The notes: generated by a model from the letters alone, not told the origin. DNA of 64,000 nucleotides from Acidobacteria bacterium UBA6911 (GCA_963579905.1 CAUZIZ010000009.1:1333-65332), one strand, 5' to 3'. Shown: positions 1,200-62,329, numbered from the stretch's first letter. A program made the numbers and translations.

Positions 1200-1429
1200 C
1201 TAAGCTGAAACTTCAACCACGAGGAAGCGAAGCAACCTTCGCCAATTGACAGAGCCGTGACTGTCAGGGAGCGGGCCCGACAGGGACCATAACCCCAGGC
1301 GCTTCGTTGAAGTACAGGATCCCACTCCCTCACGTTCATGGCTCTGTCAGCGCTGCTAGCGATGATCATGGCAGAGGCAATCCCAGTTTCTTTCTCGAAT
1401 GGGGCCAGGGCTTTCTGGGGCGGGACTGA
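1200..1429 (+). mobile_element. Modular repeat cassette A (L end, REPIN cargo type 1, R end)
   Basis: CTAAGCTGAAACTTCA at 1200-1215. Inverted pair TGACAGAGCCGTGAC..AGGGAG / CTCCCTCACGTTCATGGCTCTGTCA spans 1247-1349. AGTTTCTTTCTCGAATGGGGCCAG..TGGGGCGGGACTGA at 1385-1429. The 3' part recurs inverted at about 13730-13812. Confidence 0.8.
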
Positions 1430-4044: not shown

Positions 4045-4045
4045 C

Positions 4046-5281: not shown

Positions 5282-5315
5282 TACAGGTCCGTGGTCAGTG
5301 GTCCTTGGTCCATCG

Positions 5316-6578: not shown

Positions 6579-6796
6579 GGGTCTAGAGTTCGACGTTCGA
6601 ATTGTAGGCTTCTTGAAACAGTCTCACAATAGCCACTGGCCCTGATTGTCATACCAACGCTGCGTAATTTCGCAGCGGTGACTGGCAAGGTCACGGGTCC
6701 AGGGCCGATTGGGGGGACGCACCGCTGTCGGTTTTTTCTCCGGGCGCCTACCTCCGATTGCTGCTGGACCGCCGGAATCAAGGGCACGAGGGGATC

Positions 6797-8384: not shown

Positions 8385-8705
8385 AGCGTCGTGCTGCTGC
8401 GATGCTATTGTTCTCATGCGTGACGCTGGCCCTGGTCAGCTGCTGGAGTCCAGTACTCGATTTCGTCCGTCATGGCTACGCAGTGGACCGCATCGAGTAG
8501 CGCTTGACCGGAGAGGCGATCTTCCCTGCGCAGATTGAAGACTGCAAGGAGGCCATCCGCTGGCTGGGGACGAAGGCGTCGTTGTACGGACTCGACCCGG
8601 CCAGAATGGCGGCATGGGGGCCTTGGCGGCGGGCATCTTGCGGCCCTGCTGGGAACCAGCGGCGGAGTGCTGCAACTGGAGGGGCGCCTGGGCAACCCAT
8701 CAGAT
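8381..8705 (+). pseudogene. Alpha/beta hydrolase (esterase/lipase) fragment
   Basis: [40 protein letters not shown], a frameshift, then [13 protein letters not shown] at 8498 where Tyr is usual; ends at cassette B. Confidence 0.8.
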
Positions 8706-8712
8706 GGTATTG

Positions 8713-8897
8713 TCAGGAGTGCTCCCCCCAGCAGAGTTAACCCCATTCGAGAAAGAAACTTCAGTGTCCCACAGTGGCACGGGCATCCCTGCCCGTGATG
8801 ACCGATCCGTCGAGCCAAGGGCTCGATAATCACGGCCTGGAAGGCCGTGCCACGGTTGGGAATCCTGAACCTGGAACCAAATGAAGTTTTAGCTTAG
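8713..8897 (-). mobile_element. Modular repeat cassette B (cargo type 2)
   Basis: R end CCCCATTCGAGAAAGAAACT 8741-8760. Cargo GTGGCACGGGCATCCCTGCCCGTG..CACGGCCTGGAAGGCCGTGCCAC 8774-8853. L end TGAAGTTTTAGCTTAG 8882-8897. Confidence 0.8.
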
Positions 8898-8966
8898 GAG
8901 GCAGGTTCTCGTACCAGGCCAGGTTAACCATTAGCGGATCGGGGCCGGTAGCGAAGTTGGTGGTCG

Positions 8967-9320
8967 TCATGTACCTCGCAACCGAGCTGGAGATCTTGCA
9001 TCCCTCTCCCGGTTCGCCATTGCGATGGATCGAAACCGCTGAACTCCGCTGGGTGCTCTGCGTAGCGACAAGCGCATAGAGAATTTCCACAGGCGTCTGA
9101 TCCGCGTGGTGAGACGGGGATCGTTGGAGTCCGTCCAGAGGGCCCTGAGAGCGTCCTTGAGGCGCTCGATGTTTTTCTCCTCCACCCGCACGAAGAGATC
9201 GACATCTTCTGTGGCGCGAACGATCCCATGGAGGTTGAGTGCCACACCCCCGATAAGTACGTACTCGACCCCTCGCGCGTCGAGCTCGCGTAGGATCGCC
9301 AGGAACTGGTCAAAACTCAT
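8967..9320 (-). pseudogene. Nucleotidyltransferase (AbiEii/DUF6036-like) N-terminal remnant fused to unrelated sequence
   Basis: MSFDQFLAILRELDARGVEYVLIGGVALNLHGIVRATEDVDLFV carries the GG..DxD NTase motif, then breaks off after about 64 aa. Confidence 0.7.
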
Positions 9321-9470
9321 GATGGCCTCTGAAGAAGAGCAGCACGACCTGGCCGGGTAAGGACGAGGAGGTTTAGGTGGAGGGCTTCTGATAGGGCAAG
9401 GAAGACTGCGATCCAGTACGGTGACAGAGCCCGGTGATGTGCTAGAATCGCGCGCCAGAGGGGGTGTGCA

Positions 9471-10946
9471 ATGGATCGACTCTGGAGACGGAGGCAGTTC
9501 GGAAAGCTCGGAGCGGCGCTGGCACTTGCCCCCGTCCCGAGCTGGTCCCAAGCAGAGCCTCGACTGGGGCTGGTTCGCGTGACGCGGGGTGCGGCATTCC
9601 TGAGCACGCCCGTTTCTGCCCCGGCTGGCGAGGTCTGGCGCTACGGAATTATCTACCCGTTCCAGGTTGCGCCGCGCTTGGCTGCCGTGTTCTGCAACAT
9701 CCGCAAGGCACTCAATCCCGGTGTCGATTTCGAGCTCGGCTCCGACGTGCTGCTCTTCGACAGCCTCGATGCGATCCGGAGCGACACGGCTGTCCAAATC
9801 TCTCGCAACCACGAGGAGCCGAACCCGAACTCCCGACCTCCGAACGAGAGGGCGGTCATGGTGAAGTACCCGGTGGCCGGCGGTTTCGTGCCCGCCGGGG
9901 CGAAACGCGCCGACGGCTCGCCCCACCCGCATGCCGGAACCGGGTTCGGCCTCTCGACCGCCCAGGCCTGGCCCCAGCACGACCGGGACCTCGGACACAA
10001 CGCCGACCGGATCGGGCGCCGCGCCTACCCGGGGGCCCAGGCCCACGAGTACCTCGAGCTCCAGCAGCTTTCCTACGACGGCAGCCGGTTCCGGGCGGAG
10101 AAGGCCAAGGCGCTGGTGGAGGGTCGAGCAAGCGTTGGAGACTGGTTCCTAGCTGGCAATCCGATTCGGAATGGGATCGCCGACGGCGACGATCTCCTAC
10201 TCCCGTACAGCTGCCGCCGCGGGGAGCCGGCCGGCCCGCAGCGGTCCCGGGTCGCTAGCGGTGTCCTCCGTTTTCGCCGCACTACGGGTTTCTGGAAACC
10301 GCACTCTTTTGTCCCGGTGACTCCCGAGGATGGCTCCTGGGAGCCGACCCTGGTGCGCGACGTCGACGGGGCGCTGCTGCTCTGCGCACGGGGTAAGGGG
10401 GAACCGAACCGAACAAGCATTCGGGTCTGGCGCTCTGCGGACAACGGCTCGACCTGGCGGCTGCAGATCGAGGCGCTCGGGGTCATCTCGATGTCGCCGG
10501 TGTCGATCAACCAGGCTGCCGACGGCACTCCTTATGTGGCCGCCAACCTGTTCGAGGTGCCGCTCTGGCCGATTGGCGACGAGCGCTACAACCACAGCGC
10601 GTACAAGGGCACCGGGAATGGTGGACGGATGCGCCTCGGCGGGTGGCTGCGGGAACGCCTGGTGCTCTGGCCGCTCTCGCCCGACCGCAAGCGCCTGGCG
10701 TCGCCGATTGTCGCCCGCGACTGCCGCGGTGAATTTGGACTGCCCCCGGGAGGCAGCAGCTGGCACGTTGATCACCCCTCGGCCATGAACCTCCAGCTCG
10801 GCGACGGACGCTGGAACAACGTCCTCGGCTACCGCGTCCTGGAGCGCGCAGAGGCGACGCACGCGATCGCACCGGCGCCCCAATCGGGAGCCTACCTCGA
10901 GGAAGTCCTCTCGTCCGGTCCGCCGCTGCCCGCTTGGCACTTCTGA
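9471..10946 (+). CDS. Tat-exported sialidase-like/BNR beta-propeller hypothetical protein
   Basis: RRRQFGKL signal; WEPTLVRDVDGALLLCAR and Asp-box SADNGSTW. Confidence 0.7.
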   Translation: MDRLWRRRQFGKLGAALALAPVPSWSQAEPRLGLVRVTRGAAFLSTPVSAPAGEVWRYGIIYPFQVAPRLAAVFCNIRKALNPGVDFELGSDVLLFDSLDAIRSDTAVQISRNHEEPNPNSRPPNERAVMVKYPVAGGFVPAGAKRADGSPHPHAGTGFGLSTAQAWPQHDRDLGHNADRIGRRAYPGAQAHEYLELQQLSYDGSRFRAEKAKALVEGRASVGDWFLAGNPIRNGIADGDDLLLPYSCRRGEPAGPQRSRVASGVLRFRRTTGFWKPHSFVPVTPEDGSWEPTLVRDVDGALLLCARGKGEPNRTSIRVWRSADNGSTWRLQIEALGVISMSPVSINQAADGTPYVAANLFEVPLWPIGDERYNHSAYKGTGNGGRMRLGGWLRERLVLWPLSPDRKRLASPIVARDCRGEFGLPPGGSSWHVDHPSAMNLQLGDGRWNNVLGYRVLERAEATHAIAPAPQSGAYLEEVLSSGPPLPAWHF

Positions 10947-10964
10947 GCCAGGGGATTGCTGGAA

Positions 10965-12492
10965 ATGATCTATTTTTCCCGTACGCTACTGACCTCGTTC
11001 CTGATGGTGGGCACCTTCCCCTCCCAGCTCGGGGGCAGCTGTGCCCTCTATGTGGGTCGGAATCTTACTGCGGATGGCAGCGTTCTGCTGGGAGGTTACG
11101 GGGACGAGCCCTCGAGCCACTGGATCGAAGTCACTCCGGCTATCGATCACCCGGATGGCACTACCTGGAGGTCGGAGTCACTGCGGCGTCCCGATATCCC
11201 AGCCTGAGATTTCGGATCTCCCAGGTGTCTCGAACCCACAAGTATCTGGCTGTCTCGTATTCCTCCTTTGCAGGTTTCCCTGCTCCCCTCACCAACGGCG
11301 GACTCAATCAGCACCTGGTGGCGGGACGGGATGTCTCTGCGGGCGCCCGGCTCGAGTTGCGCCAGATGACCTCCAACCCACAGCGGGGTCTTAACTACAG
11401 CGACCTGGCCCGGATCGCCCTGGAGCGAGCCAGGACTGCTCGTGAGGCTGCCCAGATTGTGGGCTCTTTGGTCGAGGAGCACGGCTACGCTACCTTTGGG
11501 GGGAACTCCCATATCTTTGCTGATACTACAGAGGGCTGGATCGTGCTGGAGTTTGCGGGGGGCCAGGGCCTCTGGGTCGCACAGCGTCTGGGTGCGGACG
11601 ATATACGCGTCTTCAGGGGAGGCTACATTGGTGAAATCCCCCTGGATTATCGAACCCATCCGGACTATATGGGGTCCGAGAACCTGATCTCGTTTGCGGT
11701 GGAGCAGGGCTGGTACGATTCTCAATCAGGGAAGCCATTCAATGTTCATGCCGTTTATGGTGTCGACAGGCAGCCCAACCTGGCGGGGAGCCAGATCCGT
11801 ACCGAGGCGATGGAATACATGGAGGCGTGGCTTCGGCAGCGCTCTTCCAGGTTGACACTTCAGGACATGATGGAGGCAGTCCGCAGTTCTGTCATTACCC
11901 GCGAGTCGGCCGGATATGGTCAGGTAGCCCACCTCAAGAGGGGAGTCAGGAGTGAGGTGGCGCCACTCTGGATTGCCCTGGCTCCATCCCTGGCCAGCCT
12001 TTCCTGCCTTTCTACCTTGGGATTACTGACGTGCCCGCGGAGTACAAGGAACACCGCTATCTGACAAAAGGTGAGGCCAGTCAATTCATCCCGAGAAATC
12101 GCCAGGGAAGGGAATCCACCCGCTCCGCTTTTCAGGTATACAAGCGACTTTTCCACCTGGTCTGTGAGCACCCTTGCAAGTTTCAGGCTGAGGTAAAGGG
12201 GGCGTTGACAGCCTTTGAGGCACAGTTGATAGGAAAGCAGGCTGGGGTGAAGAGGACGGCCCATACCCTTCTGCAGGCTTCTCACGATCTGGCTGCGGAC
12301 TACTTGACCCGAGTGACCAGTCAGACCGCGCTCGAGGCCTTGGATCTAGCCGAAAAGCTGTCAGCCAGCATCGAGATTCGGAGCCGGCTTCTCTACGGGG
12401 TCCGTGAGCCAGAGGCAGGGGAGGAGGGAATTGTTCACTGCCGCTGTCAGTCGCGGCCTCCAGCCGGCCGCACCAGCTGGCCCTCGGGCTGA
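10965..12492 (+). pseudogene. Peptidase C69-like (Ntn-hydrolase) dipeptidase, frameshifted
   Basis: Signal peptide, then SCALYVGRNLTADGSVLLG, ALERARTAREA and GGNSHIFADTTEGW. Frame changes near 11165 and 12000. Confidence 0.75.
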
Positions 12493-12626
12493 AGTCTCGC
12501 TCGTCTCCCTCTCGAACAGCGCCGTAACGAAGCCAGTACCTGGTCCGCGGTAAGGTGGGTTATCATTTCAGGCGTGCTAGTTACGCCGGCGTTCCCGATC
12601 CTGTCTCAAGGAGTCTCAAAACTCAT

Positions 12627-13364
12627 CTAGGCCGGAGCATCTTCCTGAAAGAGGGTAATCCCAATCTCTAAATACTTGTTGCGCTCTTCTGGCGTTGTAG
12701 CCGTACCCATGGCCAGACGAATGCCGGTGCCTGCTAATTGGCCGGCCACATTGCGCATACAGTCATCGACGTCTTGCAGCGGATACTCCGGGTGGTCCTC
12801 CAGGCTGAACAAGAGATCATTTGGTCCGAACGTGACCACGCTCACTCCTGGTTTGGCCAGTTTCCGAATATTGCTCACCGCTTCGACGGATTCTACCTGG
12901 ATAGCTAAAACCACGTAGTCGTTCCACCACGCCGCGTAGGCGCGCCGATCCATCCCTTGGGCCATGCCGCGCAGACCTCGGCGGTTAGATCCGCCCCAGC
13001 TGCGCCGTCCGATGGGCCCGTAGTAGGCATAGGCGATAGCGTCGTCTACGGTCTCGGGTTCCATTACTTCCGGGACCAGAACCGCGCTGGGCCCAAAGTC
13101 CAGATAGCGCCCGAGCAGGTAGGCGTGCCGGGTGTGGGTGATGCGCAGTTGCACGTCGATGCCCAATTCTTCGGCGGCACGGCAGTAAGTGACCAACTGT
13201 TCTTCGCTAAAAGGGCTATGCTGACCATCTATCCAGATATAGTCATACTTACCAGTTGACCATATACCGGACAACTGGTCCTTACTGGTGGCCAGCGAGC
13301 CACGCAGGGCAACCAGTACTTCACCGTCTTCAATGCGTTGTCTGAGTGTTTTTGTGGGCGCCAT
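12627..13364 (-). CDS. HpcH/HpaI aldolase/citrate lyase family protein
   Basis: YDYIWIDGQH, YLDFGPSAVLVPEV, IQVESVEAV and FGPNDL motifs; start placed at MAPTKT. Confidence 0.85.
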   Translation of the reverse strand: MAPTKTLRQRIEDGEVLVALRGSLATSKDQLSGIWSTGKYDYIWIDGQHSPFSEEQLVTYCRAAEELGIDVQLRITHTRHAYLLGRYLDFGPSAVLVPEVMEPETVDDAIAYAYYGPIGRRSWGGSNRRGLRGMAQGMDRRAYAAWWNDYVVLAIQVESVEAVSNIRKLAKPGVSVVTFGPNDLLFSLEDHPEYPLQDVDDCMRNVAGQLAGTGIRLAMGTATTPEERNKYLEIGITLFQEDAPA

Positions 13365-13700
13365 GATTCGCTCCTGTGTTTGCTGGCTTTGCTGGGCAAG
13401 GGGAGGTTTCCGCCACTGGGAGCAATTGGATGCCAATCCCTTCCTTGCCGCTATAGACGACCTGACCATTGCCTCCAACGCTGGTGCAGTAGACGACAGC
13501 AACAGCATCGTCGGGCAACACCGGAAGCGATCCTAGTTTAACTGATGCGCGATGGGCAACCTACTTCCTTGCTTTTTTACCTCCATTCCCTGCTGAGACT
13601 CGATCTGTCAGTTCTGGAGAGCAAGCATGGAAGCCGGCTGGTGGGCCGGAGTTGGCGCTGTCTCAACCACGTGCAGATCGCGAGACCAGTGGTCACGATG

Positions 13701-14061
13701 CTAGCCCCGCCACCGGCTGCACCGGATCATGCGAGAAAGAAACTTGGATTGCCTCAGCCATGATAATCGCTAGCAACCCTGACAGAGCCATGACCGTGAG
13801 GGAGTGGGATCCGGAGATCCAACTTAAGGGGCACACTCCGATCGACATCTGTGCGCACCCCTTCGACCTGGAAGCCTGAAGCGCAAGCGAGGGGTTGGGT
13901 AACACCCCGAATCCCCCCGGCTTAGCTGCTTGCCGCGCCTCAGGCCCCTTCGTCCTCCCATTGCACTGCCCTCCAACCCCTCGCTCGCGCTTCAGGCTTC
14001 CTCACGTTTCGTATTATTGGGCGACCTGGAGGTGCGAGTTCCGAATGAAGTTTCAGCTTAG
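13701..14061 (-). mobile_element. Modular repeat cassette C1 (half of cargo 1 plus cargo 3)
   Basis: R end CTAGCCCCGCC..GCGAGAAAGAAACT 13701-13744. GACAGAGCCATGACCGTGAGGGAG at 13781. Inverted pair GGAAGCCTGAAGCGCAAGCGAGGGGTTGG 13870-13898 / 13973-14001. L end TGAAGTTTCAGCTTAG 14046-14061. Confidence 0.8.
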
Positions 14062-14270
14062 TCCCACCCCCGCTGCGCTGCCCCATTCGAGAACGAAACT
14101 TCCGGCTACCGGGGATTTGTGCGTCACTGCGTGGGGAAGGGTTGTCCGGCTCTCTCCTCGGAACCTGGGCTCATTTTGCTAACGGCTCAAGTCGTTCGCG
14201 GCTCTGTCGGGCGTGGCTTCGCAGTTGGTAGTTTAGCTGCAGATGGGATCTCGCTGATGAAGGATCTAAT
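14058..14270 (-). mobile_element. Modular repeat cassette C2 (cargo 6), in tandem with C1
   Basis: R end TTAGTCCCACCCCC..CCCCATTCGAGAACGAAACT 14058-14100 shares TTAG with C1. Cargo CAAGTCGTTCGCGGCTCTG..GGCTTCGCA also occurs at about 55190-55226. Distal end is degenerate. Confidence 0.7.
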
Positions 14271-14275
14271 TGAAC

Positions 14276-15940
14276 TCATAGAGGCCTTCTTGGGAGAGCC
14301 AGCCCCTGAGGATCTCGGGTGTCGCGGTAACGTTGGAGGCGCCTTTTGAGCTCCCGCAACCTTGCTTGGATTTCCGGATTGGGAATGGCTCGGATCGAGC
14401 CCTCCAGCCGTGCCTGAATCTGGCCACAGGCATCATCATCAAAGGGCAGCTCTTCTTTCAGGTAAATGTAAGCTGGGTTGGTGTGGGCATCTGCTCCGGC
14501 GTCCCCGTAGGCTCGAACGGCAACCCAGCCGCTGCGGTCGACCTGGAGCCGCTCCGAGATCTCCCACCTCGACGGACCAGCGGGGTCGAACTTTCGGGAT
14601 ACTACTTGTCCGTTCCAGATGATCTCGACATACCGCACTGGATAGAGGGGGCTCAGCACGCGTACTTCCAGCTCCAGAGAAATCGCCTCTTCCTTCGAGA
14701 CGATCACTCCTCCCGGCCCTTTTCCGTTCACCTCCAGGAAAATCATGGGCCCACTGGTCGCGAAACTGCGCCCGGAAGCCAGCGATTGCAGGAACTCCTT
14801 GGCGGTGGGTTCCTTGTCCGATTGAACGTAGGTCACACAGTCTCCCAGCTCCCGAGTATAGGGGAAATCTGACGCTCCAACGATGGGCCAGCGGTATCCT
14901 AGATTCAAGAAGTCATACCAACCGTCCAGGCCCAGGCCGCGGTATCCTCCGAATTGCAGCAGCTCCAGAAAATCCATCTTTCCAGTCAGGGCCAAGGCAT
15001 CCGCTTCACGGTGGGAGGAGCCTCCATGGGCGAACCCGATAACTCCCGACTGTAGGTGCGCCTGATCGGCGATGACCCCGAGCGAAGGTGTCTCAGTTAC
15101 ATCATCCGATGGTCCCTGACCAGGGACATAGTCCTTCGCCAACACAATCACGTGCCCCAGATAGTCGGCCCGGTACTCCTGGCCGGAAATCAGATGGTAG
15201 GGCCCCTTCCGCCGAATCGACTTCTCGCCTAGGCCATAAGCCTGTCCCCACGACTCGAATTTCCGGCCCAGGCCGTAGCCCTTGGTATTCATGGACAGGC
15301 TGAAGGCGTAGCGGATGTCGCGAGCCGAGGTCAGCGTCAACAGCGTGTCGTCGTTTCGTCCGGTTCGCTCGAAATGGATATGGGTGTCTCCCGAATACCA
15401 CCCCTGTTTTGCCATATCGATCCAGCGCTTGAGATAGATCGTCGCCTTCTCGGTCTGGTTCTTTCTCAGGCGAAAGGTCTGCTGGGTCGGAGTGTATTCG
15501 TAGCCTCGGCGGACCTCCACCGTGCAGGTTCCGGAGGGGACTCTCACCGAAAAGGATCCGTCGGTGAAGAAATAGTAGTTCAGTCTGCGAAACCGTATCG
15601 GGCCCTTGTGCCGGTTGGCGGACATCCGAAGGGAGTAAGGCTCGTAGGGATCGTTCTCCGGCTCCTGATCTCCACGGTTGACGCTTACCGTAGCACTCAG
15701 CCGTTCTCCGGTATCTCGATCCCGAACAATCAAGTCGAGAGTTGCCGCATCGGGGCCCGGGTCGACTTTCGGAGGCGGGAGGGGAGGACCCTCAAAGCCC
15801 TGTCCTGGGTCGACCCCGCCGACCGGGAACTCCTCCACCATTCGATGACGCTGAAGCTGGGCTGAGTAGACAAAAGATAAGACCAGGAGCAGTAGAAAGT
15901 AAACCCTCAGGATTCGGATCGAGATGAAGGGTCGGGACAT
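14276..15940 (-). CDS. CehA/McbA-type PHP-fold metallohydrolase, exported
   Basis: Signal peptide; GWYSGDTHIH, FAHGG, WYDFLNLG, GASDFP, GRSFATSGP and AHTNP motifs. Confidence 0.85.
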   Translation of the reverse strand: MSRPFISIRILRVYFLLLLVLSFVYSAQLQRHRMVEEFPVGGVDPGQGFEGPPLPPPKVDPGPDAATLDLIVRDRDTGERLSATVSVNRGDQEPENDPYEPYSLRMSANRHKGPIRFRRLNYYFFTDGSFSVRVPSGTCTVEVRRGYEYTPTQQTFRLRKNQTEKATIYLKRWIDMAKQGWYSGDTHIHFERTGRNDDTLLTLTSARDIRYAFSLSMNTKGYGLGRKFESWGQAYGLGEKSIRRKGPYHLISGQEYRADYLGHVIVLAKDYVPGQGPSDDVTETPSLGVIADQAHLQSGVIGFAHGGSSHREADALALTGKMDFLELLQFGGYRGLGLDGWYDFLNLGYRWPIVGASDFPYTRELGDCVTYVQSDKEPTAKEFLQSLASGRSFATSGPMIFLEVNGKGPGGVIVSKEEAISLELEVRVLSPLYPVRYVEIIWNGQVVSRKFDPAGPSRWEISERLQVDRSGWVAVRAYGDAGADAHTNPAYIYLKEELPFDDDACGQIQARLEGSIRAIPNPEIQARLRELKRRLQRYRDTRDPQGLALPRRPL

Positions 15941-16391
15941 GACTGAAACCTCCCTTGACGTTGCGGCATTTCATGACGGACAAGCGGGTGTCTGTGACCA
16001 AGCACTGGTGCTGTTGGAAAGCCCCAAGCCTCAAGATGTCAACCGTAGGCCGTCCACGAAGCAGTCTGAGCTAGAGCGCTACCCCTGTTTCCACACTGTA
16101 GCACGCCACAACCACATCAGGCCCTATCTCTGCCCTGGGTTGCGAATCAACCCTTCAAAGCTCCAACTCAGACTGGTAGAGAACTACATTTGGCTCCACT
16201 GCGGAGATAGTGGTGTAAGCGCTCCGGTATGCGAATTCGGAGAAATGAGGAGGGGAGGGTGGTTTTTTGAGCGATTCGATTGCGCTAGAATTGGCCGTGG
16301 ATAACTGGTCCGAGACTCGTTCTCGCCAGTAATCCCAATGCGATAGAGTCGAGCTCTATTGGGCCTTCAACGAACTAAAGTAGATCCAAGG

Positions 16392-16658
16392 ATGCAATTT
16401 GTCGTTCATTACTCTATTACGCCGGAACTATGTGATGTTGCTCAAACCCGCTTCACCGAAACCGGTGCGCCGCCGCCGTCGGGTGTCACCATGACTGGCC
16501 GTTGGCATTGTGTGCACGGCAGGGAGGGATTCCTTGTTTGCGAAGCCGATGACGCAACCGCTTTGGCGACCTGGATACAGCAGTGGTCGGATCTTCTGAC
16601 TTTTCGGGTACTGCCAGTGGTGGAAGACAAGACGATGGCCCAGGTAATCAGCGGCTAG
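16392..16658 (+). CDS. DUF3303 family protein
   Basis: RFTETGAPPPSGVTMTGRWH..GFLVCEADD..WSDLLTFRVLPVVED pattern. Confidence 0.8.
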   Translation: MQFVVHYSITPELCDVAQTRFTETGAPPPSGVTMTGRWHCVHGREGFLVCEADDATALATWIQQWSDLLTFRVLPVVEDKTMAQVISG

Positions 16659-16725
16659 TCGATCTAGCACGCCGACTCCTAGGGCATCCATTCGCCTGAC
16701 TCAGCCCCGACAAAGGAGAGCCCCG

Positions 16726-18384
16726 ATGCGTTCTGCCTCCGACAAAGAGTCTGTGACTTCGAGGGTTAGCCGCCGGGCGTTCATCGGTGGGGCTGCCCTG
16801 AGCACGGCCGCTGCGACCGTGCCCGTGGCTTGTCGATCGGAGGAGACCCCTGCACCGGAGCCCTCCGCCGTTACTTCCGTCTCTTCCTTCGAGCTGGACG
16901 AGGTCTCCATCGCCGAACTTCAGAGGAGGATGGGCTCGGGACAGGAGACGGCCCGTTCCCTGGTCGAGAAATACCTGGCGCGCATCCAGGAGATCGACCG
17001 CCAGGGGCCAGAGCTGCGCTCGGTGATCGAGATCAATCCCGAGGCGCTTCCAATTTCCGACTCCCTGGACCAGGAGCGAAGCTCTACGGGCGCTCGAGGG
17101 CCACTGCACGGTATTCCCATTTTGCTCAAGGACAACATCGACACCGCCGATCGGATGACCACCACCGCCGGCTCGTTGGCACTGGAGGGATCCATCCCTC
17201 TCAAGGACTCCTACGTGGCCCGAAAGCTGCGTCAGGCGGGGGTCGTTCTCCTGGGGAAGACCAATCTCAGCGAATGGGCCAACTTCCGTTCCACCCATTC
17301 CAGCAGCGGTTGGAGTGGACGAGGTGGGCAGTGCCGGAATCCCTACTTCCTCAATCGCAATCCCTGCGGTTCTAGCTCGGGCTCCGGGGCAGCGACCTCG
17401 GCCAATCTGTGCGCTGCCGCCATCGGCACCGAGACGGACGGCTCGGTTCTCTGCCCCTCCACCGCCAACGGCATTGTGGGCATCAAGCCCACTGTAGGGC
17501 TGGTGAGCCGCGTTGGGATTATTCCCATTGCCCACAGCCAGGACACCGCGGGGCCCATGGCACGAACGGTGGCCGACGCTGCGGCCATTCTGGGAGCGCT
17601 CACGGGCATCGATCCCCACGACTCCCACACCCTTGCTAGCCAGGGCAGATCCCAGACCGACTATAGTCGATTTCTGGACGCGTCCGGACTCCAGGGTGCC
17701 CGGATCGGATTGGCCCGGCAATACCTGGGCTTTCACCCCGCAGTCGATAGGATCGTCGGAGAGTCGGTCGCGGCAATGAAGAGTCAGGGGGCGGAGATCA
17801 TCGATCCTGCGGACATTCCCACCCACGGGCAGTGGAGAGAGACCGAGCTAGAGGTAATGCTCTACGAGTTCAAGGCCAACCTGAACACGTATCTGGCCGG
17901 ACTGCGAGCCTCGTCCCAGGTGAGATCGCTGGAGGACCTGATTCGCTTCAACGAAGAAAACAAAGAGCGCGAAATGCCCTATTTCGGTCAGGAGCTTTTC
18001 ATCCGGGCCCAGGAGAAGGGACCGTTGAGCGAGAAAAAGTACCGGGAGGCGCTGGCCACCAACCACCGTCTGACCCGGGAAAGGGGAATCGACAAGGTGA
18101 TGGACGAGCACCGACTGGACGCCATCGTTGCCCCCACGGGTGGTCCCGCCTGGGTCACTGACCTGGTCAACGGCGATCACTACGGCGGAGGTAGTTCCAG
18201 CCCGGCAGCGGTTTCAGGCTATCCCAGCATCACCGTTCCGGCGGGTTTCGTCCACGGGCTTCCGGTGGGCATCTCTTTCTTCGGAAGGGCCTGGACGGAG
18301 GGGGTGCTCATCCGAGTCGCCTACGCCTTCGAGCAGGTCACACAGGTGCGCCTAGTCCCGCAGTTCCGGCCAACCGCGGTCTGA
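16726..18384 (+). CDS. Amidase (amidase-signature, peptide-amidase-like), Tat-exported
   Basis: SRRAFIG signal; GPLHGIPILLKDNI, GKTNLSEWANFR, GSSSGS and IGTETDGS motifs. Confidence 0.95.
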   Translation: MRSASDKESVTSRVSRRAFIGGAALSTAAATVPVACRSEETPAPEPSAVTSVSSFELDEVSIAELQRRMGSGQETARSLVEKYLARIQEIDRQGPELRSVIEINPEALPISDSLDQERSSTGARGPLHGIPILLKDNIDTADRMTTTAGSLALEGSIPLKDSYVARKLRQAGVVLLGKTNLSEWANFRSTHSSSGWSGRGGQCRNPYFLNRNPCGSSSGSGAATSANLCAAAIGTETDGSVLCPSTANGIVGIKPTVGLVSRVGIIPIAHSQDTAGPMARTVADAAAILGALTGIDPHDSHTLASQGRSQTDYSRFLDASGLQGARIGLARQYLGFHPAVDRIVGESVAAMKSQGAEIIDPADIPTHGQWRETELEVMLYEFKANLNTYLAGLRASSQVRSLEDLIRFNEENKEREMPYFGQELFIRAQEKGPLSEKKYREALATNHRLTRERGIDKVMDEHRLDAIVAPTGGPAWVTDLVNGDHYGGGSSSPAAVSGYPSITVPAGFVHGLPVGISFFGRAWTEGVLIRVAYAFEQVTQVRLVPQFRPTAV

Positions 18385-18476
18385 CTTAGTGTCCCCATCG
18401 GGGATGGTGAAACCCCTCGCCTTCAGGCGAAGAGAAGGTCCCCGAAGTCCCGCAGGGACGGTAGGGTCATCTTCGA

Positions 18477-18755
18477 GTGAAGTTGAAAGTGCTAGAGTCA
18501 CTGGCAGCCTATCAGGACCACCTCGGCGGAAAGGAGGAGAAGGTGGTCGCGTACATCGAAAAGTATGAGCGGCCGCTCCTGGACCTGTACAGGAAGAGCA
18601 AGACAGGCTTTCGTCCCTTTTTCCGTGCCCTCCTGTGGCTGATGGAACATTTCAACAGCAACATCGGCCGCAGACCCCACCGAGCGCTGGAGAAAGAGGA
18701 GATCTAGGATATCCGAAAGTTCCTGGAGGACAGAGAGATTCCCGTCGTGAGGTAG
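18477..18755 (+). other. Small orphan reading frame with an internal TAG, between two hairpin repeats
   Basis: 76-aa ORF continues past TAG 18705 as DIRKFLEDREIPVVR*. No family recognised. Confidence 0.3.
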
Positions 18756-18915
18756 CCCCCGACGGTTTTCTCAACTTGAGCACCGGAAGGCTCTCCCTGA
18801 AGGCCGGAGCGGCAGAATTCACTCGAAACCATGATCTCCCAACGACGGAAGCAGTACTCCGACGAGGGACAAAAACGACCTACCGCCTTCTAGTCTTTTG
18901 GAAATGAGGAGCTGT

Positions 18916-20481: not shown

Positions 20482-21507
20482 ATGAAGCCCGTGACCGATC
20501 GCTACTCGCGCCAGATTCTGTTCTCGGGGATCGGCCCGGAGGGACAGGAGAAAATCCAAAATGCCCGCGTCGTTCTGATCGGCTGCGGAGCCTTGGGAAC
20601 GGTGAGCGCCGAACTTCTGGTCCGCGCTGGCGTGGGGCGGCTTCAGCTCATCGATCGAGATTTCGTCGAGGAAAGTAATCTTCAACGTCAGAGCCTCTTT
20701 ACCGAGGCGGATGCACGCTCTGCAATTCCCAAGGCGGTTGCTGCCGAAAAGGCCCTCCGATCTATCAACTCCCTGGTGGACATAAGCGGAATCGTCCAGG
20801 ATCTGACCGTTGAAAATATTGAAGACCTATGTCGGGAGAGCGACATCATCGTTGATGGAACCGACAACTTCGAAACCCGATATCTGATCAACGATTTCTC
20901 CGTGAAACGAGGCGTATCGTGGGTTTACGGGGCTTGCGTAGGCAGCTACGGGACTGCCTTTCTGGTCCGTCCGGGAGCTACCTCCTGCCTTCAGTGCCTC
21001 TTTCCCGAGCCCCCGCCTTTGGGAAGCGTGGAGACCTGCGACACTGCGGGAGTCCTCGGCTCGGTAGTCCACGCCGTGGCTTCCTTTCAGGTAGCTCAGG
21101 TCCTGAAGATCCTGGTCGGACAGACTCCCGGGGAACGGGTGCTAAAGGTCGATGTCTGGGAGGATCACTGGCAGCTGATCTCAGCGGCAGGGGCCCGAAA
21201 CCAGGACTGTTCTTGCTGCGGCAAACGAAAATTCCGCTTCCTGGAGGCGGAGGAGCGGACTCACCTGATGCGCCTGTGTGGTAGGGATGCAGTTCAGGTC
21301 CGTCCCAGCCGGATGACCCAACTTGACTTTTCACAGCTGAGCCAACGCCTGACGAAGAGTGGTAAAGTCCGTTACAACCAACACATGATGAGAATTCAGA
21401 TCAACGGATATGAGATCGCCCTGTTCCCCGACGGCCGTTCGATCATCAAGGGAACCGACGATTTTTCGGAGGCTCGAGCAGTCTATGCCAGGTATATTGG
21501 GAGCTGA
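20482..21507 (+). CDS. moeB: MoeB/ThiF family adenylyltransferase
   Basis: RYSRQILF, IGCGALG, DRDFVEESNLQRQ, DGTDNFETR, CLQC and TCDTAG motifs. Confidence 0.9.
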   Translation: MKPVTDRYSRQILFSGIGPEGQEKIQNARVVLIGCGALGTVSAELLVRAGVGRLQLIDRDFVEESNLQRQSLFTEADARSAIPKAVAAEKALRSINSLVDISGIVQDLTVENIEDLCRESDIIVDGTDNFETRYLINDFSVKRGVSWVYGACVGSYGTAFLVRPGATSCLQCLFPEPPPLGSVETCDTAGVLGSVVHAVASFQVAQVLKILVGQTPGERVLKVDVWEDHWQLISAAGARNQDCSCCGKRKFRFLEAEERTHLMRLCGRDAVQVRPSRMTQLDFSQLSQRLTKSGKVRYNQHMMRIQINGYEIALFPDGRSIIKGTDDFSEARAVYARYIGS

Positions 21508-21746
21508 CCTGAGACTTCAGCGATTCGTCGGAACGTCTGAACGTCGCACGTCTCTGCTCCCGGGAAAGTGCTACGAACGGTTTAGACCTGAACGTCGAGC
21601 GGCGAGGCACGCATGACGAATCTCCGGTTGACAGAGCCGTGACCGTGAGGGAGCGAGCCCTGATCAAGGACCGAACCTGGCAGCTTCGCTTTGGAAGTTT
21701 CCCCCTGAATGATCCAGCGTGACTGGGGCGCAATCCCCAGACCTAG
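21504..21746 (+). mobile_element. Modular repeat cassette D (half of cargo 1)
   Basis: L end CTGACCTGAGACTTCA 21504-21519 overlaps the moeB TGA. GACAGAGCCGTGACCGTGAGGGAGCG at 21630. R variant AGTTTCCCCCTGAATGATCCAGCGTGACTGGGGCG from 21696. Confidence 0.75.
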
Positions 21747-24000: not shown

Positions 24001-24145
24001 ATCGGGAGCTACAAAGGGGCTGTCTGTTATCCAGGGTTCGGAAACCCTGGGCTGAAATCCGGAATCCCTTCAGGATTCGAACCCACTTGGGCGCTTGAAT
24101 CGGGTCCAAGGGGAAGCTGCAAGAGAACGCTGCTCTAGCAGCCTC

Positions 24146-24321: not shown

Positions 24322-24793
24322 CTTCAGGGCCGGGTATCCGCGCGACGTGAGGGGCAGAGCCTGCTTCAGCAGGTTTCTCGAGGAAAGGCTCTGGCCAGGA
24401 TCCGTTCCGATCTCCACTAGCAAGGCTCGATCCAGTTCTCAAAGGCAACCAAGATTCGCTCGGGTCGTCATCATGAGGTACAAAGGAGCATCGGAGCGGA
24501 CTTTGGCCGAAGCCCCCACTCGAGAAGCCCACTGAAGCGAGCTCAAGTCTGCACTTTTCCCGAGTACCCGGCCCTGAAGGACCGGTCTATGACGCTTCGC
24601 GCCAGCCTGCTGAAGCAGGCTCCGAGAGCGGGCAGATGTCCAGACCAAACGACTGCTGCGAGCGGGATGATTCGAGAAAGAGTTGCATCCGAAGCCAGGT
24701 TTCGACGCAATCGCCTGTAACACGCCACAACCATACTGAAATCATTGGTTACGTTTTTTCTCCATCCCACCTGTCAATGAAGTTTCAGCCTAG
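24322..24793 (-). mobile_element. Modular repeat cassette G (cargo 5)
   Basis: 24541-24793 is a degenerate direct copy of 49808-50059. Palindromes CCCGGCCCTGAAGGACCGG and AGCCTGCTGAAGCAGGCT. L end TGAAGTTTCAGCCTAG 24778-24793. Confidence 0.8.
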
Positions 24794-37262: not shown

Positions 37263-37464
37263 CTGACCTGAAACTTCAAAGAATCGTCTGCACGTCTGAA
37301 GGTCGCACGTCCCTTGTCTGTGAAAACCGTGGCACGGCCTTCCAGGCCGTGATTGTGGAGCCTCTAGCTCCACGGGCCGGCCATCACGGGCAGGGATGCC
37401 CGTGCCACTACGGGATGTTGACGTTTCTTCCTGAATGATCCAGCGTGGCTGGGGGCTGCACTAA
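37263..37464 (+). mobile_element. Modular repeat cassette E1 (cargo 2)
   Basis: L end CTGACCTGAAACTTCA 37263-37278; cargo 2 at 37329-37408. R variant GTTTCTTCCTGAATGATCCAGCGTGGCTGGGGGCTGCACTAA ends at 37464. Confidence 0.8.
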
Positions 37465-37634
37465 CCTGAAACTTCAATAGGCTCCGGTGGATCGACGTGG
37501 TTCGGTCTCCAGGCCGAAGTATTCTTCTTTTTCGAGCCTTTGGCTCGATACACGGCGGCCTGGAGACCGCCACCACGGCCGGGACTCCAAGTTTCTTTCT
37601 CGAATGGGACCAGCGCTTCCTGGGGGCGAGACTT
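37461..37634 (+). mobile_element. Modular repeat cassette E2 (cargo 4), in tandem with E1
   Basis: L end CTAACCTGAAACTTCA 37461-37476 shares CTAA with E1. Cargo GTGGTTCGGTCTCCAGGCCGAA..GGCGGCCTGGAGACCGCCACCAC. R end AGTTTCTTTCTCGAATGGGACCAGCGC from 37590. Confidence 0.82.
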
Positions 37635-38007
37635 GTGTAGCGTGAAGCAACCGAAGGAATCTGGCCCAGCGGCAGAGAGTCTTCAGAAGGTGGAACTTCA
37701 CTTGGCTAGGCGATCATTCAGGTGCCGCCAAATGAAAGAGCCGTGACCGTGAGAGGGTGCCGCAAAAGTCCACATCAAAATCCGGGATGCTAACGGAGCA
37801 GGTCTAGTTGCCACTTCTGTGATAGGCCCTTCCAAGGAGGCTGCTAAAGGCAGGGTAGGTGTTCGGCTCCCTCGACGTAAAAGGGTCCAGTCTGGGGATT
37901 CTCCCGAGGTGCCACCTGCTCTCTCTGCTGATCGAATCCATGGGCATCAACAGTGGTCGTCTCAACGGTGTTGCCATCCTGGCCATGGAGGGAGGGAGGA
38001 TGGGGTT

Positions 38008-49562: not shown

Positions 49563-49625
49563 AGGTATGGGAAGAGAAATTGTGGTGCTGCCCTCAACCT
49601 GTAACCTGCAACCAACGAAGTCTGG

Positions 49626-50059
49626 TTAGTCCCGCCCCCATTCGAGAAGGAAACTTTTTCCTACTTCTGAATTCATCGCCTGAGCAGAAGGTTTTACTAT
49701 AGCTAACCCTATCCAGGAGTCCGCTTTAGCCGGCTGGAACGAAGCGTATTAGACCGGTCCTTCAGGGCCGGGTATCGGGTCGCGTGAAGTTGAGGCCGCT
49801 TCAGCGGGCTCAAGTTTCACTTCACCCCGATACCCGGCCCTAAAGGACCGGTCTATTACACTTCGCGCCAGCCTGCTGAAGCAGGCTTAGAGTGTGCTCA
49901 GATCTCCAGACCAAACGACTGCTGCGAGCTGGATCATTCCAGAAAGAGTTGGCCTCCGAAGCCAGGTCTCGACGCAATCGCCTGACACCACAACCATTTT
50001 GAAATCGTTGGGTTACGTTCCTTTTCCATCCAAATGTGGAAATGAAGTGTTCAGCTTAG
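49626..50059 (-). mobile_element. Modular repeat cassette F (cargo 5, probably two nested units)
   Basis: R end TTAGTCCCGCCCCCATTCGAGAAGGAAACT 49626-49655. Inverted TAGACCGGTCCTTCAGGGCCGGGTATCGGG / CCCGATACCCGGCCCTAAAGGACCGGTCTA. Internal R-like CTGGATCATTCCAGAAAGAGTT near 49930. L end 50043-50059. Confidence 0.8.
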
Positions 50060-54892: not shown

Positions 54893-55074
54893 CTTAGGGT
54901 CTAAGCAAAAATAACTTGGCATTTTGGCATCTCATCTTCATACCATCTTCGGCCGCTCGCGAAATCCTCAATGTAGACCAGGCTACGCCTGAGGTTTCGC
55001 TCAATCGTTCGCGGCCAAATCTGGTGCAAATCTGAGCGCCAATTCTACCAAGTTATTCTTGCGCAGACCCTTAG
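54893..55074 (-). mobile_element. MITE family M3, copy 1
   Basis: CTTAG at both ends; TIR GGGTCT..GCAA(A/G)AATAACTTGG. Degenerate reverse complement of 57172-57360. Confidence 0.9.
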
Positions 55075-55245
55075 TCCCGTTACCCGGAGCGCTAGCCCCA
55101 GTCGAGAAAGAAACTTCGGTTGAGTACGGGGGAGATTTTGCTGCTGACCGGCTCTCTCTTTGGAATCTGGGTTGATATTGCTAGCGGGTCAAGTCGTTCG
55201 CGGCTCTGCCGGACTTGGCTTCGCAATACGGGTAGTTCACCCGTC
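55071..55245 (-). mobile_element. Modular repeat cassette H (R end plus cargo 6), abutting MITE M3
   Basis: TTAGTCCCG..GCGCTAGCCCCAGTCGAGAAAGAAACT 55071-55115. Downstream sequence matches about 14150-14235. Confidence 0.7.
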
Positions 55246-61490: not shown

Positions 61491-61932
61491 ATGAGTTGGC
61501 TCGGGGGAGGCCGAAATCCAAACCAAACAGATTTCTGAAGACCTGGTTTCCGAGCCCTCAGCGGATGCAGGCGGCTCCGGTTATGACTGTCTGGCTCCAG
61601 ACGGTTCCGAGATTCGCCTGCTGCTGGCTCGAAAAGGAGGGAGTCTGGTCCACTGCAGTCTTGGAGCGGGCCAAGTATCGGCGCCGGTTCGCCATCAAAC
61701 GGTGGAGGAGCTCTGGTATTTCATCGAAGGGCAGGGAGAAGTCTGGCGCAGGCCTCCGGGAGCGGCAACCGGTGAGGTGACCTTGGTGCGACCTGGAACC
61801 GCCCTCGACCTACCGGTAGCAACCCACTTCCAGTTCAGAAACACGAGTACCCGGCCTCTGCGGTTCATCATCGTCACGATGCCCCCCTGGCCAGGTGACG
61901 AAGAAGCAGTACCGGTTGACGGTATCTGGTAG
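61491..61932 (+). CDS. Cupin domain protein; start possibly frameshifted
   Basis: Frame open from 61495: LAPDGSEIRLL..H..VRHQTVEELWYFIEGQGEVW..HFQFRN..MPPWPG. The nearest ATG (61491) is one base out of frame. Confidence 0.8.
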
Positions 61933-62329
61933 TAGCGGTGGCCTCCAGGCCCCCGTCCCTCGAGCCAGAGGCTCGAAAGAAAGAAGACTTCGGCCTGGAG
62001 ACCGAACCCACGTCCTGATCCCGCAAGCAAAGCGAAGTCTCAGCTCAGCCCCACCCCCAGCAGCGCTGGCCCAATTCGAGAAAGAAACTTCGTCTGAATT
62101 CATCATCTACGCTGAAGGCGTTATTGCGTGTAGCCCAGGGTTGCAATGCGAAGCGAGCTGCCCTGGGTTTAAGTTGTCCCCTGCCTTTCCTACGCTGAAA
62201 GCGTTGTTGCCAATACGCCGCGGTCCGCAATAACCCCGTTGGGGTATGGGCCTTTAGCGAATCTGACCCAGGGTAGCTCGCTTCGCATTGCAACCCGGGG
62301 CTACACGCAATAACACCTTCGGCGTAGAT
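61932..62329 (-). mobile_element. Modular repeat cassettes I1 and I2 in tandem (cargo 4 and cargo 7)
   Basis: Cargo 4 at 61932-62014 (reverse complement of about 37494-37575). Degenerate L CGAAGTCTCAGCTCAG 62033-62048. R TCAGCCCCACCCCCAGCAGCGCTGGCCCAATTCGAGAAAGAAACT 62045-62089. Long palindrome 62105-62329. Confidence 0.8.

What the first reader, a model, noticed from the sequence alone, without database searches (positions are those of the whole stretch)
14040..14100. Head-to-tail cassette junctions share a single tetranucleotide
Seen: three independent R-L junctions overlap on one tetramer with no spacer: TTAG 14058-14061, CTAA 37461-37464 and TCAG 62045-62048 (CTAA, CTAA and CTGA on the element strand). 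Inference: new units integrate at the end of resident units through a CT-containing core, building small arrays. This recalls site-specific integration of circular intermediates (IS110 core, HUH tetranucleotide targets, integron-like stacking).
Basis: partly seen in the sequence, partly recalled or inferred. Interest (0 to 1): 0.7.

Follow-up and report, generated by a model that had tools for sequence, protein, structure and literature searches.

The report
Stacked mini-elements of an IS110 transposon
The head-to-tail junctions are real and belong to hundreds of short gene-less passengers of an RNA-guided IS110-type jumping gene, which stack by recombining at one shared CT dinucleotide: a large new example of a mechanism already described.

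Summary
All three junctions read as described. Genome-wide the junction is fixed: in 141 of 143 cases the L core starts exactly one base after the CTRA tetranucleotide.

The units are short cassettes, median 244 nt. About 540 carry an L end, in about 10 cargo families at 378 loci.

Their ends are the ends of an IS110-family insertion sequence. Full copies with a DEDD_Tnp_IS110 + Transposase_20 gene lie between L and R in genomes of the same genus. The window's own genome keeps only a deleted copy.

One filled site against five empty sites fits exchange at CT. The CTGACCTGG after the terminal R was already in the target. There is no target duplication.

What is shared is a dinucleotide core inside a guide-matched stretch.

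The closest precedent is ISPpu9/MITEPpu9: a 43-bp A box, a 16-bp B box and a shared AG. This is a new member of a known kind, unusual for its scale.

The parts
1200..1429 (+). Complete solo cassette. L end 1200-1215 (CTAAGCTGAAACTTCA), hairpin-rich cargo, R core 1385-1402, end CTGA 1426-1429.
   Evidence: cargo family fam1
8713..8897 (-). Complete solo cassette. L end 8882-8897, R core 8743-8760, end CTGA 8713-8716.
   Evidence: (I2)
14058..14240 (-). Unit lacking its L end (5'-truncated, commonest cargo family). R core 14083-14100. It ends in CTAA = TTAG 14058-14061, the reported junction.
13701..14061 (-). Second cassette of the same array. L end 14046-14061, variant R core 13722-13744, end CTAG 13701-13704.
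21504..21746 (+). Cassette with L variant CTGACCTGAGACTTCA (21504-21519) and R2-type R core 21696-21718.
24778..24793 (-). L end (CTAGGCTGAAACTTCA). It is followed on the minus strand by ..AACGTAACCAATGATTTC, which looks like a remnant of the transposase 3' end. The rest of the unit, down to about 24300, is mixed with REP2 hairpins.
   Evidence: (fam7)
37263..37464 (+). First cassette of a two-unit array. L 37263-37278, R2-type core 37422-37444, CTAA 37461-37464 (the reported junction).
37461..37635 (+). Second cassette. L 37461-37476, R core 37590-37607. It ends in CTTG 37632-37635 and is followed by unique DNA.
49616..49655 (-). R end without its own L or cargo (core 49638-49655), CTAA 49626-49629, then a degenerate L-like CCAGACTTCG.
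55071..55115 (-). R end (core 55098-55115) ending in CTAA 55071-55074. The terminal-inverted-repeat element I call Z is inserted right at this CTAAG.
62045..62110 (-). R end (core 62072-62089) ending in CTGA = TCAG 62045-62048, the reported junction.
61932..62048 (-). L variant CTGAGCTGAGACTTCG (62033-62048) plus cargo that breaks off before any R (3'-truncated unit).
   Evidence: (I14, I22)

Best explanation
The units are non-autonomous, MITE-like derivatives of an IS110-family insertion sequence, the family of RNA-guided 'bridge' recombinases. They keep only the two ends of that IS. Between them lie unrelated, hairpin-rich cargos of about 100-250 nt.

Shown:
- Full-length IS copies in genomes of the same genus have exactly this layout.
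- The window's own genome has a deleted copy with the same ends.
- There is no target duplication.
- The junction spacing is constant.
- One insertion with five empty counterparts exists, and the bases right of CT at the R end were already in its target.

Inferred:
- A cassette is excised as a circle in which R and L are joined through one CT (AG in transposase orientation).
- The recombinase, guided by an RNA made from the IS left end and supplied in trans, exchanges strands at that CT with a genomic CT. The flank of that genomic CT (CT-RAS-CTG-AAAC) resembles the IS right end, so this is a half-match target.
- After insertion the left junction reads flank-CT+AAGCTGAAAC (from the donor). The right junction reads R-CT+GACCTG.. 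(from the target).
- A site of this kind is still present after each insertion, and every L end is also one. Further cassettes therefore land at the same place and build head-to-tail arrays whose internal junctions copy the circle junction.

In this genome the cassettes are probably immobile now, unless an intact IS copy was missed by the assembly.
For: 1. The partner element.
- PF01548 (DEDD_Tnp_IS110) matches 5 of 5 congeners.
- In G001 locus L055, L lies at 619-634. A 460-aa ORF runs antisense at 625-2004. Its TAG stop lies inside CTAAC, and it matches PF01548 (E 1.7e-26) and PF02371 (E 1.5e-6). A 249-nt non-coding LE (2005-2253) ends in an R3-type R, and the next L follows.
- Related copies are L060 and L064 (G001), L056 (G002), and L057 and L061 (G003).
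- The window junctions align with these IS ends.
- L-proximal cargo of several cassette families (..GTAACCCATTGATTT) reads as the antisense of the transposase C-terminus ..KSMGY.. (compared by eye).

2. The window's own genome. A tblastn of the G001 transposase gives one hit, C58:18769-19542 (43.9% over 262 aa, E 4e-62). That hit lies between an L (18697) and an R2 (19604), so it is an internally deleted copy.

3. A filled site against empty sites. C20:565-795 (231 nt, L-cargo-R) is absent from 5 of 5 homologous RAYT loci in G002, G003 and G004.
- Empty: ..TATCTGCAT-CTGAC-CTGGCACACC.
- Filled..GGAT-CTAAG-CTGAAAC..cassette..GATCGA-CTGAC-CTGGCACACC.

4. Population patterns.
- The L boundary is sharp at CT: C 0.87, T 0.89, background upstream.
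- L-side pentamers are mostly CTAAG and terminal R-side pentamers mostly CTGAC or CTGAA. The two are identical no more often than chance: 6 of 68 solo cassettes against 6.0 expected, and 41 of 238 against 41.3.
- Flanks of terminal R ends keep a graded match to CTGAAAC.

5. A guide-RNA-like left end.
- The LE is conserved and structured: 32 predicted pairs, 3 of them covarying, in 4 sequences.
- It carries the RE-end motif twice, as GCAGGTTAG in G001, where the RE ends ..TTTCAGGTTAG.
- In both G003 copies the second motif is CCAGGTCAG. In L061 the RE ends ..TTTCAGGTCAG; in L057 the same words lie about 50 nt past the open frame.

6. Precedent in print.
- ISPpu9/MITEPpu9: a 43-bp A box with an inverted repeat, a 16-bp B box, and B-A' junctions sharing one AG (PMC12288879: abstract and passages).
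- IS110 features: long LE, short RE, bridge RNA in the LE, no terminal inverted repeats (PMC11208160: passages).
Against: - No intact cognate recombinase was found in the window's genome. PF01548 gives 0 matches in an assembly that is 94.9% complete, in 311 contigs.
- There is only one clean filled/empty pair. It has 4 extra bases (CTGG) upstream that I cannot explain. The sequence there is a low-complexity ATCTG repeat, so the exchange point is not resolved beyond 'at or next to CT'.
- Two other insertions relative to G001 (C82) were too rearranged to read.
- The cargos are not homologous to the interior of the IS. BLAST of the G001 IS against this genome hits only its two ends.
- The cargos lack the guide-like motif: 6 of 233 have it internally. 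Their origin is unknown.
- Why about 47 nt of R stay conserved is unexplained. A 22-bp donor suffices for IS621 (PMC11208160).
- My assignment of guide segments is by eye.
- Rfam finds no family in the LE or in the arrays.
- The first guide motif in the congeners' IS (AGGTTAG) predicts CTAACCT. Terminal flanks here are CTGA in 64% of cases.
- I have no evidence of circles or of RNA. Public contigs break at the arrays.
Confidence: 0.85

Rival explanations
1. R+L is one contiguous REP- or NIME-like hairpin repeat of about 65 nt (GAAGTTTC..GAAACTTC). It separates mosaic modules, and the arrays arise by homologous recombination or gene conversion between these repeats rather than by site-specific insertion of circles.
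For: - Terminal R ends are usually followed by an L-like stretch.
- R starts with GAAGTTTC, the complement of the L core, so a hairpin can be drawn.
- Cargos share sub-modules in mosaic fashion.
- Many units are truncated at either end.
Against: - Arrays start with a sharply cut L (only the last 16 nt) next to unique DNA. 323 of 508 L ends with repeated cargo have no R-like sequence upstream.
- In the filled/empty pair the L-like bases after R were already in the empty target.
- A transposase gene sits between the same L and R in congeners, and a remnant does so in this genome.
- Free copies of the full R+L unit without cargo were not seen as a class. Of 104 solo L cores, 96 lack the CTRR prefix and look like chance hits.
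Confidence: 0.07
2. The cassettes are moved as single strands by an HUH (Y1 or Y2) transposase of the IS200/IS605, RAYT or IS91 type. They would insert 3' of a CTAA target tetranucleotide and end in their own CTRA.
For: - The ends are asymmetric, with a hairpin about 12 nt before the R end.
- A conserved tetranucleotide lies left of L and at the end of R.
- There is no target duplication.
- Y1 genes exist in the genome (4 matches), and one lies right after a cassette.
Against: - The Y1 genes have other ends. C125:6170-6604 is flanked by REP1 palindromes. The C20-type gene is flanked by inverted REP2 hairpins in this genome and in 5 or more relatives' loci, and the cassette there is an insertion absent from 5 of 5 relatives.
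- The multi-copy 140-aa IS200 of the congeners has no L or R motif nearby (0 of 17 loci).
- L has no hairpin like that of R (read).
- The model does not predict target-derived CTGACCTG after R. It also needs a G-to-A change to explain CTAA on the left of the filled site.
- PF04986 (IS91) was not searched.
Confidence: 0.04
3. The arrays are integron-like. A tyrosine recombinase would stack circular cassettes at an attC-like hairpin site.
For: Head-to-tail cassettes are separated by a structured site of about 60 nt with a fixed breakpoint.
Against: - There are 378 dispersed loci, most with one or two units, and no common attI-like entry point.
- The gene found between L and R ends is a DEDD IS110 transposase, not an integrase.
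- Junction and terminal pentamers differ in the one-sided way expected from exchange at one fixed point. They do not look like the product of a 6-8 bp overlap region.
- No integron-integrase search and no attC model search was run.
Confidence: 0.02

Closest known systems
ISPpu9 and its passenger MITEPpu9 (ssr9 module) of Pseudomonas putida KT2440, IS110 family (PMC12288879; abstract and passages read)
   Same: - A long left box with an inverted repeat: 43 bp there, about 47 nt here.
- A 16-bp right box.
- The same boxes flank a gene-less module.
- The module sits head-to-tail behind another unit, and the junction shares one AG (CT on the other strand).
- Modules also occur alone and in tandem.
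- The paper regards the module as a selfish hitch-hiker on the transposase.
   Different: - Scale: 8 MITEPpu9 copies of one cargo there. Here about 540 L-bearing units in about 10 cargo families at 378 loci, up to 3.7% of the genome.
- ISPpu9 inserts into REP sequences. Here primary targets are half-sites resembling the element's own right end.
- No sequence similarity to ISPpu9 was tested.
- Circles were shown by experiment there, not here.
IS621 / IS110-group bridge-RNA recombinases (PMC11208160; passages read)
   Same: - A DEDD plus Tnp-domain recombinase.
- No terminal inverted repeats and no target duplication.
- A long LE and a very short RE.
- A structured non-coding LE carrying sequence that matches the element's own end.
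- A core dinucleotide shared by donor and target.
   Different: - The bridge RNA here is only inferred.
- The core would be AG/CT on the opposite strand sense.
- An 8-bp subterminal inverted repeat (GAAACTTC/GAAGTTTC) is longer than the 2-3 bp reported for the IS110 group.
- No sigma-70-like junction promoter was found by a simple scan.
Expanded IS110 loci with tandem non-coding repeat units and half-match boundaries (bioRxiv 10.64898/2026.08.14.744561; abstract and section 8 read)
   Same: - Repeated insertion into already occupied sites.
- Tandem accumulation of non-coding units.
- Boundaries that match only one donor half.
   Different: Those loci grow next to a resident transposase. Here the arrays are dispersed across the genome and have no transposase.
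Integron cassette arrays; neisserial NIMEs and enterobacterial BIMEs (recalled, no paper read)
   Same: They look alike: short units in one orientation separated by a conserved structured site.
   Different: The enzyme class is different, there is no common entry site, and the cassettes are not known to carry genes.

Membership tests
IS110 family insertion sequence (autonomous partner) | Recombinase with an N-terminal DEDD/RuvC-like domain and a C-terminal Tnp domain | tested here: met
   - L055 ORF (460 aa): PF01548 E 1.7e-26 and PF02371 E 1.5e-6.
- L061 ORF (465 aa): E 7.6e-25 and 6.1e-13.
- Own genome: only a C-terminal remnant, and 0 PF01548 matches.
IS110 family insertion sequence (autonomous partner) | No terminal inverted repeats and no target-site duplication | tested here: met
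   - The ends are asymmetric by reading.
- Flanking pentamers are equal only as often as chance: 6 of 68 against 6.0 expected, and 41 of 238 against 41.3.
IS110 family insertion sequence (autonomous partner) | IS110 group: long non-coding LE, short RE | tested here: met
   The LE is 249 nt. The stop codon lies within the last 5 nt of the element.
IS110 family insertion sequence (autonomous partner) | Exchange at a core dinucleotide present once in donor and once in target | tested here: inconclusive
   - One filled site against five empty ones fits exchange at CT. An unexplained 4-nt difference lies upstream.
- CT is 97-100% conserved at junctions and 87-89% at array starts.
IS110 family insertion sequence (autonomous partner) | Bridge RNA in the LE, with loops matching target and donor | tested here: inconclusive
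   - The LE is conserved and structured: 32 pairs, 3 covarying, in 4 sequences.
- Two copies of the RE-end motif are present. The second is GGTCAG in both G003 copies, like the GGTCAG at the L061 right end, against GGTTAG in G001.
- There is no Rfam match and no RNA data.
IS110 family insertion sequence (autonomous partner) | Circular intermediate with an RE-LE junction | not testable with these tools
   Only assembled contigs of public runs were available, and they break at the arrays.
IS110-derived MITE (MITEPpu9-like) | A gene-less unit bounded by the same left and right boxes as the IS | tested here: met
   - Alignment of window junctions with IS ends.
- 238 complete units, median 244 nt.
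- The IS interior is absent from the genome apart from C58.
IS200/IS605 or RAYT (HUH Y1) | A Y1 transposase gene between or beside the same ends | tested here: not met
   - The Y1 genes are flanked by REP1 or REP2, not by L and R.
- 0 of 17 IS200 loci of the congeners have L or R motifs nearby.
Integron | An intI integrase with attI, and an array of ORF-attC cassettes | not tested
   No intI or attC search was run. The architecture (378 dispersed loci) speaks against it.

The most novel reading that the evidence does not exclude
Every head-to-tail junction in an array is a permanent copy of the circle junction (RE-LE). In other IS110 elements that junction forms the promoter for the guide RNA. 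The arrays could therefore be standing transcription units that express the hairpin-rich cargos as small RNAs. The ~10 cargo families would then be a natural library of RNA passengers, shuffled and stacked in an integron-like way by a bridge recombinase. Target choice through a guide that matches the element's own right end would make stacking a built-in property rather than an accident.
Probability: 0.2. Interest if true: 0.75.

Novelty: new member of a known kind. Interest (0 to 1): 0.45.

Why it matters
It turns an anonymous repeat family into a defined system: the passengers of an RNA-guided IS110 recombinase.

As far as my four literature searches show (and the papers read), it is an unusually large natural expansion of such passengers. 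There are about 540 units in about 10 cargo families, against 8 copies of one cargo for the published MITEPpu9.

The hundreds of natural insertions give a free data set on three questions:
- what a bridge recombinase needs at the donor (about 47 nt + 16 nt are kept here);
- how tolerant target choice is (only one half of the target is matched);
- how arrays grow.

For genome annotation, the finding explains why this assembly breaks at these sites. In the window's first 16 kb, gene order with the congeners also breaks off beside arrays.

Tried and rejected
- **Rfam.** Gathering scan of the window and E-value scans of two arrays and of the IS left end. Only chance hairpin hits came back.
- **Public runs.** 20 rows hold the stretch, all seawater or marine metagenomes kept as contigs, and no RNA holder is listed. 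Contigs of 4 runs laid on window 1-20000 end at the array edges. They give no bridging or empty form and no usable joints.
- **Synteny with G001.** Over 100 kb only a 3-kb block aligns.
- **Window 1-16000 against five congeners.** Genes are 74-93% identical but rearranged at the arrays. The one indel found, about 157 nt at window 10950 in G001, G004 and G005, is another element.
- **Two insertions in C82 relative to G001.** They contain cassettes but are too rearranged to read.
- **Nested insertions of cassettes inside other cassettes' cargo.** The search returned only shared cargo modules and insertions of the unrelated element I call Z.
- **Large repeats in the genome.** No multi-copy IS turned up.
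- **IS200 end analysis.** It mixed loci of both orientations, so I discard it. The motif scan replaces it. In the same way two rows of alignment A2 were in the wrong orientation. The comparison rests.
- **Target duplication.** Rejected.
- **Solo L cores as empty sites.** Rejected: 96 of 104 lack the CTRR prefix.
- **Guide-like motif inside cargos.** Found in 6 of 233.
- **Sigma-70-like promoter at the 14058 junction.** 0 found. This is not a test for an organism whose promoters are unknown.
- **Orientation relative to genes.** It rests on crude ORF-based gene calls. The upstream gene is co-oriented at 203 loci against 99, and convergent spacers number 110 against 44 divergent. I draw no conclusion from this.

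Full report
**Observation**

The three junctions are in the window as described. On it a unit begins with L, CTAAG-CTGAAACTTCA. It ends with R, (G)AAGTTTCTTTCTCGAATGG, then a short GC hairpin, then GGGCGGGA-CTRA.

At 14058-14061, 37461-37464 and 62045-62048 the CTRA of one unit is followed, after one base, by the L core of the next.

- The R core occurs 456 times. The L core occurs 651 times, against about 44 in a shuffle.
- A CTRR tetranucleotide could be called for 371 of the 456 R cores: CTGA 186, CTAA 148, CTAG 22, CTGG 15.
- Of those 371, 143 have an L core within 25 nt. In 141 of the 143 it starts exactly one base after the tetranucleotide.
- The core-to-core distance varies from 25 to 29 nt. 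That variation comes from hairpin variants inside R.

So the junction is real, invariant and far from chance.

**Anatomy of the family**

- About 540 L ends are genuine. Their downstream sequence is repeated in the genome, or an R-like sequence lies upstream.
- Of 104 L cores with neither feature, 96 lack the CTRR prefix and look like chance hits.
- By the 90 nt after L, the units fall into single-linkage groups of 191, 107, 57, 38, 22, 21, 8, 5, 5 and 4, plus 82 singletons.
- 238 complete units with the commonest R type have a median length of 244 nt.
- L ends lie in 378 clusters: 246 with one unit, 108 with two, 18 with three and 6 with four.
- BLAST hits of the cassette set cover 209,052 of 5,710,275 bases, or 3.66%. 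This is an upper estimate, because cargos share sub-modules with each other.
- Many units are truncated at one end or the other.
- The cassette part of a window query matched only this genome and its five congeners. It matched none of seven genomes of a sister genus, nor the eight genomes of other families searched. The matches in those other families lie in a neighbouring 260-bp element.

**Where the boundaries are**

At array starts the similarity begins sharply at CT: C 0.87, T 0.89, A 0.76, A 0.82, G 0.69. Upstream of that the composition is background.

At array ends it does not stop at CTRA. In 154 terminal R ends with unique DNA downstream, the next bases still resemble S-CTGAAACTT, with falling strength from 0.77 down to 0.44.

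The two flanking pentamers are not a target duplication. They are identical in 6 of 68 solo units against 6.0 expected, and in 41 of 238 units against 41.3 expected. Among the 68 solo units the L side is CTAAG in 38. The R side is CTGAC in 23 and CTGAA in 18. Internal junctions are mostly CTAAG.

**The partner element**

No DEDD_Tnp_IS110 match exists in this genome. All five congeners have many, and one group of them carries L and R motifs.

In G001 locus L055 the layout on the element strand is as follows.
- L lies at 619-634.
- An antisense ORF of 460 aa lies at 625-2004. Its TAG stop sits inside CTAAC. It has the domains PF01548 (E 1.7e-26) and PF02371 (E 1.5e-6).
- A 249-nt non-coding stretch follows.
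- An R of the R3 type ends at 2253, and the next L starts at 2259.

Two further G001 copies (92-97% identical), one G002 copy and two G003 copies are related. The window junctions align with these IS ends.

Several cassette families begin with ..GTAACCCATTGATTT. Read by eye, this is the antisense of the conserved C-terminus ..KSMGY...

The window's own genome keeps a deleted copy. It consists of L at C58:18697, a C-terminal transposase remnant (43.9% identity over 262 aa, E 4e-62), and an R2 at 19604.

**The exchange point**

A Y1 (RAYT-like) gene on contig C20 has an L-cargo-R unit directly upstream. Homologous loci in G002 (one), G003 (one) and G004 (three) lack these 231 nt. Flank identity is 78-94%.
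- The empty sites read ..TATCTGCAT-CTGAC-CTGGCACACC (CTTAC in G002).
- The filled site reads ..TATCTGCCTGGAT-CTAAG-CTGAAAC..cassette..GGGGGATCGA-CTGAC-CTGGCACACC.

So the CTGACCTGG after R was already in the target. It matches the L consensus at 7 of 11 positions.

An exchange at CT between a circle junction (..GA-CT-AAGCTGAAAC) and the target (AT-CT-GACCTGG) gives both observed junctions without any further change.

It also explains the population pattern. L-side pentamers are donor-derived CTAAG. Terminal pentamers and the graded L-like flank are target-derived. Internal junctions reproduce the circle junction.

Four extra bases (CTGG) upstream of the filled site remain unexplained. This is also a single event.

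**A guide RNA, by inference**

- The left end of the congeners' IS is conserved and folds into a long stem with an inner hairpin: 32 predicted pairs, 3 of them with compensatory changes, in 4 sequences.
- It holds two copies of the word that ends the right end. G001 has GCAGGTTAG twice, and its right end reads ..TTTCAGGTTAG.
- G003 has TAGGTTAG and CCAGGTCAG. In one G003 copy (L061) the right end reads ..TTTCAGGTCAG. In the other the same words lie about 50 nt past the end of the open frame.
- So the second word is GGTCAG where the element's end is GGTCAG. This is what a donor guide would do.
- The first word would make the element seek targets that look like its own right end. That is the half-site seen after terminal R ends.
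- The cassettes carry no such internal words: 6 of 233. They would therefore depend on recombinase and RNA supplied in trans.

This paragraph is inference. No RNA data exist, and Rfam has no matching family.

**What is known**

- Durrant et al. (PMC11208160; passages read) describe IS110 elements. They have no terminal inverted repeats, long left ends that encode a bridge RNA, a core dinucleotide, and a promoter formed across the circle junction.
- Pares-Guillen et al. (PMC12288879; abstract and passages read) describe ISPpu9. It has a 43-bp A box with an inverted repeat and a 16-bp B box. The same boxes flank the gene-less ssr9 module (MITEPpu9, 8 copies). B-A' junctions share one AG, and circles of each module were detected.
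- Hu et al. (bioRxiv 10.64898/2026.08.14.744561; abstract and section 8 read) report repeated insertion into occupied IS110 loci, tandem non-coding units and one-sided ('half-match') boundaries.
- A preprint on half-match recombination was seen only in a search listing.

The present family has the same architecture, box sizes included. It is much larger, has many cargo families, and is dispersed without a transposase. My searches for such a family in this group of bacteria found no description. Supplements were not consulted.

**Rivals**

- A contiguous REP-like repeat with recombination between copies does not explain three things: the sharply cut L at array starts, the target-derived flank, and the transposase between the ends.
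- HUH transposition fails because the Y1 genes have other ends (REP1, REP2). The congeners' IS200 also has no L or R nearby (0 of 17 loci).
- An integron-like system has no support. No integrase or attC search was run.

**Verdict**

This is a new and very large member of a known kind. The organism was not identified.

Noticed in passing
window 54897-55070 and 57176-57356: Two copies, in opposite orientation, of a ~180-bp element I call Z. It has 23-nt terminal inverted repeats (GGGTCTGCGCAAGAATAACTTGG). The two copies flank ORF 55514-57175. Z duplicates TAA/TTA and often sits in the CTAAG of cassette ends. A copy also lies at the orthologous spot in G002 where the window has a cassette array.
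   Followed up: partly
window 24146-24272 and 38008-38266: A small element with inverted ends CTAGATGATCGATTCCGAAATA. The copy at 38008-38266 is about 260 bp. It is much more widespread than the cassettes, matching in other families of the order.
   Followed up: no
window 24030-24077 and 60493-60752; genome C125:6170-6604: A REP family (CCCAGGGTTTCCGAACCCTGGG with CAACCCCAACGGGGTTG). The same palindromes flank a Y1 (RAYT-like) gene on contig C125.
   Followed up: partly
window 24357-24622 and 49792-49812; genome C20:360-1260: A second REP family (GAAGCCCGCTGAAGCGGGCTC next to GGCTAAAGCC). It flanks a second RAYT-like Y1 gene in inverted orientation, in this genome and in five or more loci of congeners. 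In C20 the HUH motif of that gene reads DHLPL.
   Followed up: partly
window 55264-55354: A tandem 7-nt repeat (TGCTCAC, shifting to TGCTCGC) about 160 nt upstream of ORF 55514-57175.
   Followed up: no
window 10948-10954: G001, G004 and G005 have an insertion of about 157 nt between two genes that overlap in the window and in G003. It is not an L/R cassette.
   Followed up: partly
window 33991-37018 (GC dip at 32001-34000): A 3-kb block is 95% identical to G001, while the rest of the 100 kb compared is not collinear. Other genes are 74-93% identical to congeners. GC falls to 0.48 at 32-34 kb.
   Followed up: no
locus L064 (G001:C1) about 2838-2872: An L core directly followed by an R core, that is, a cassette with no cargo, next to a full-length IS copy.
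   Followed up: no
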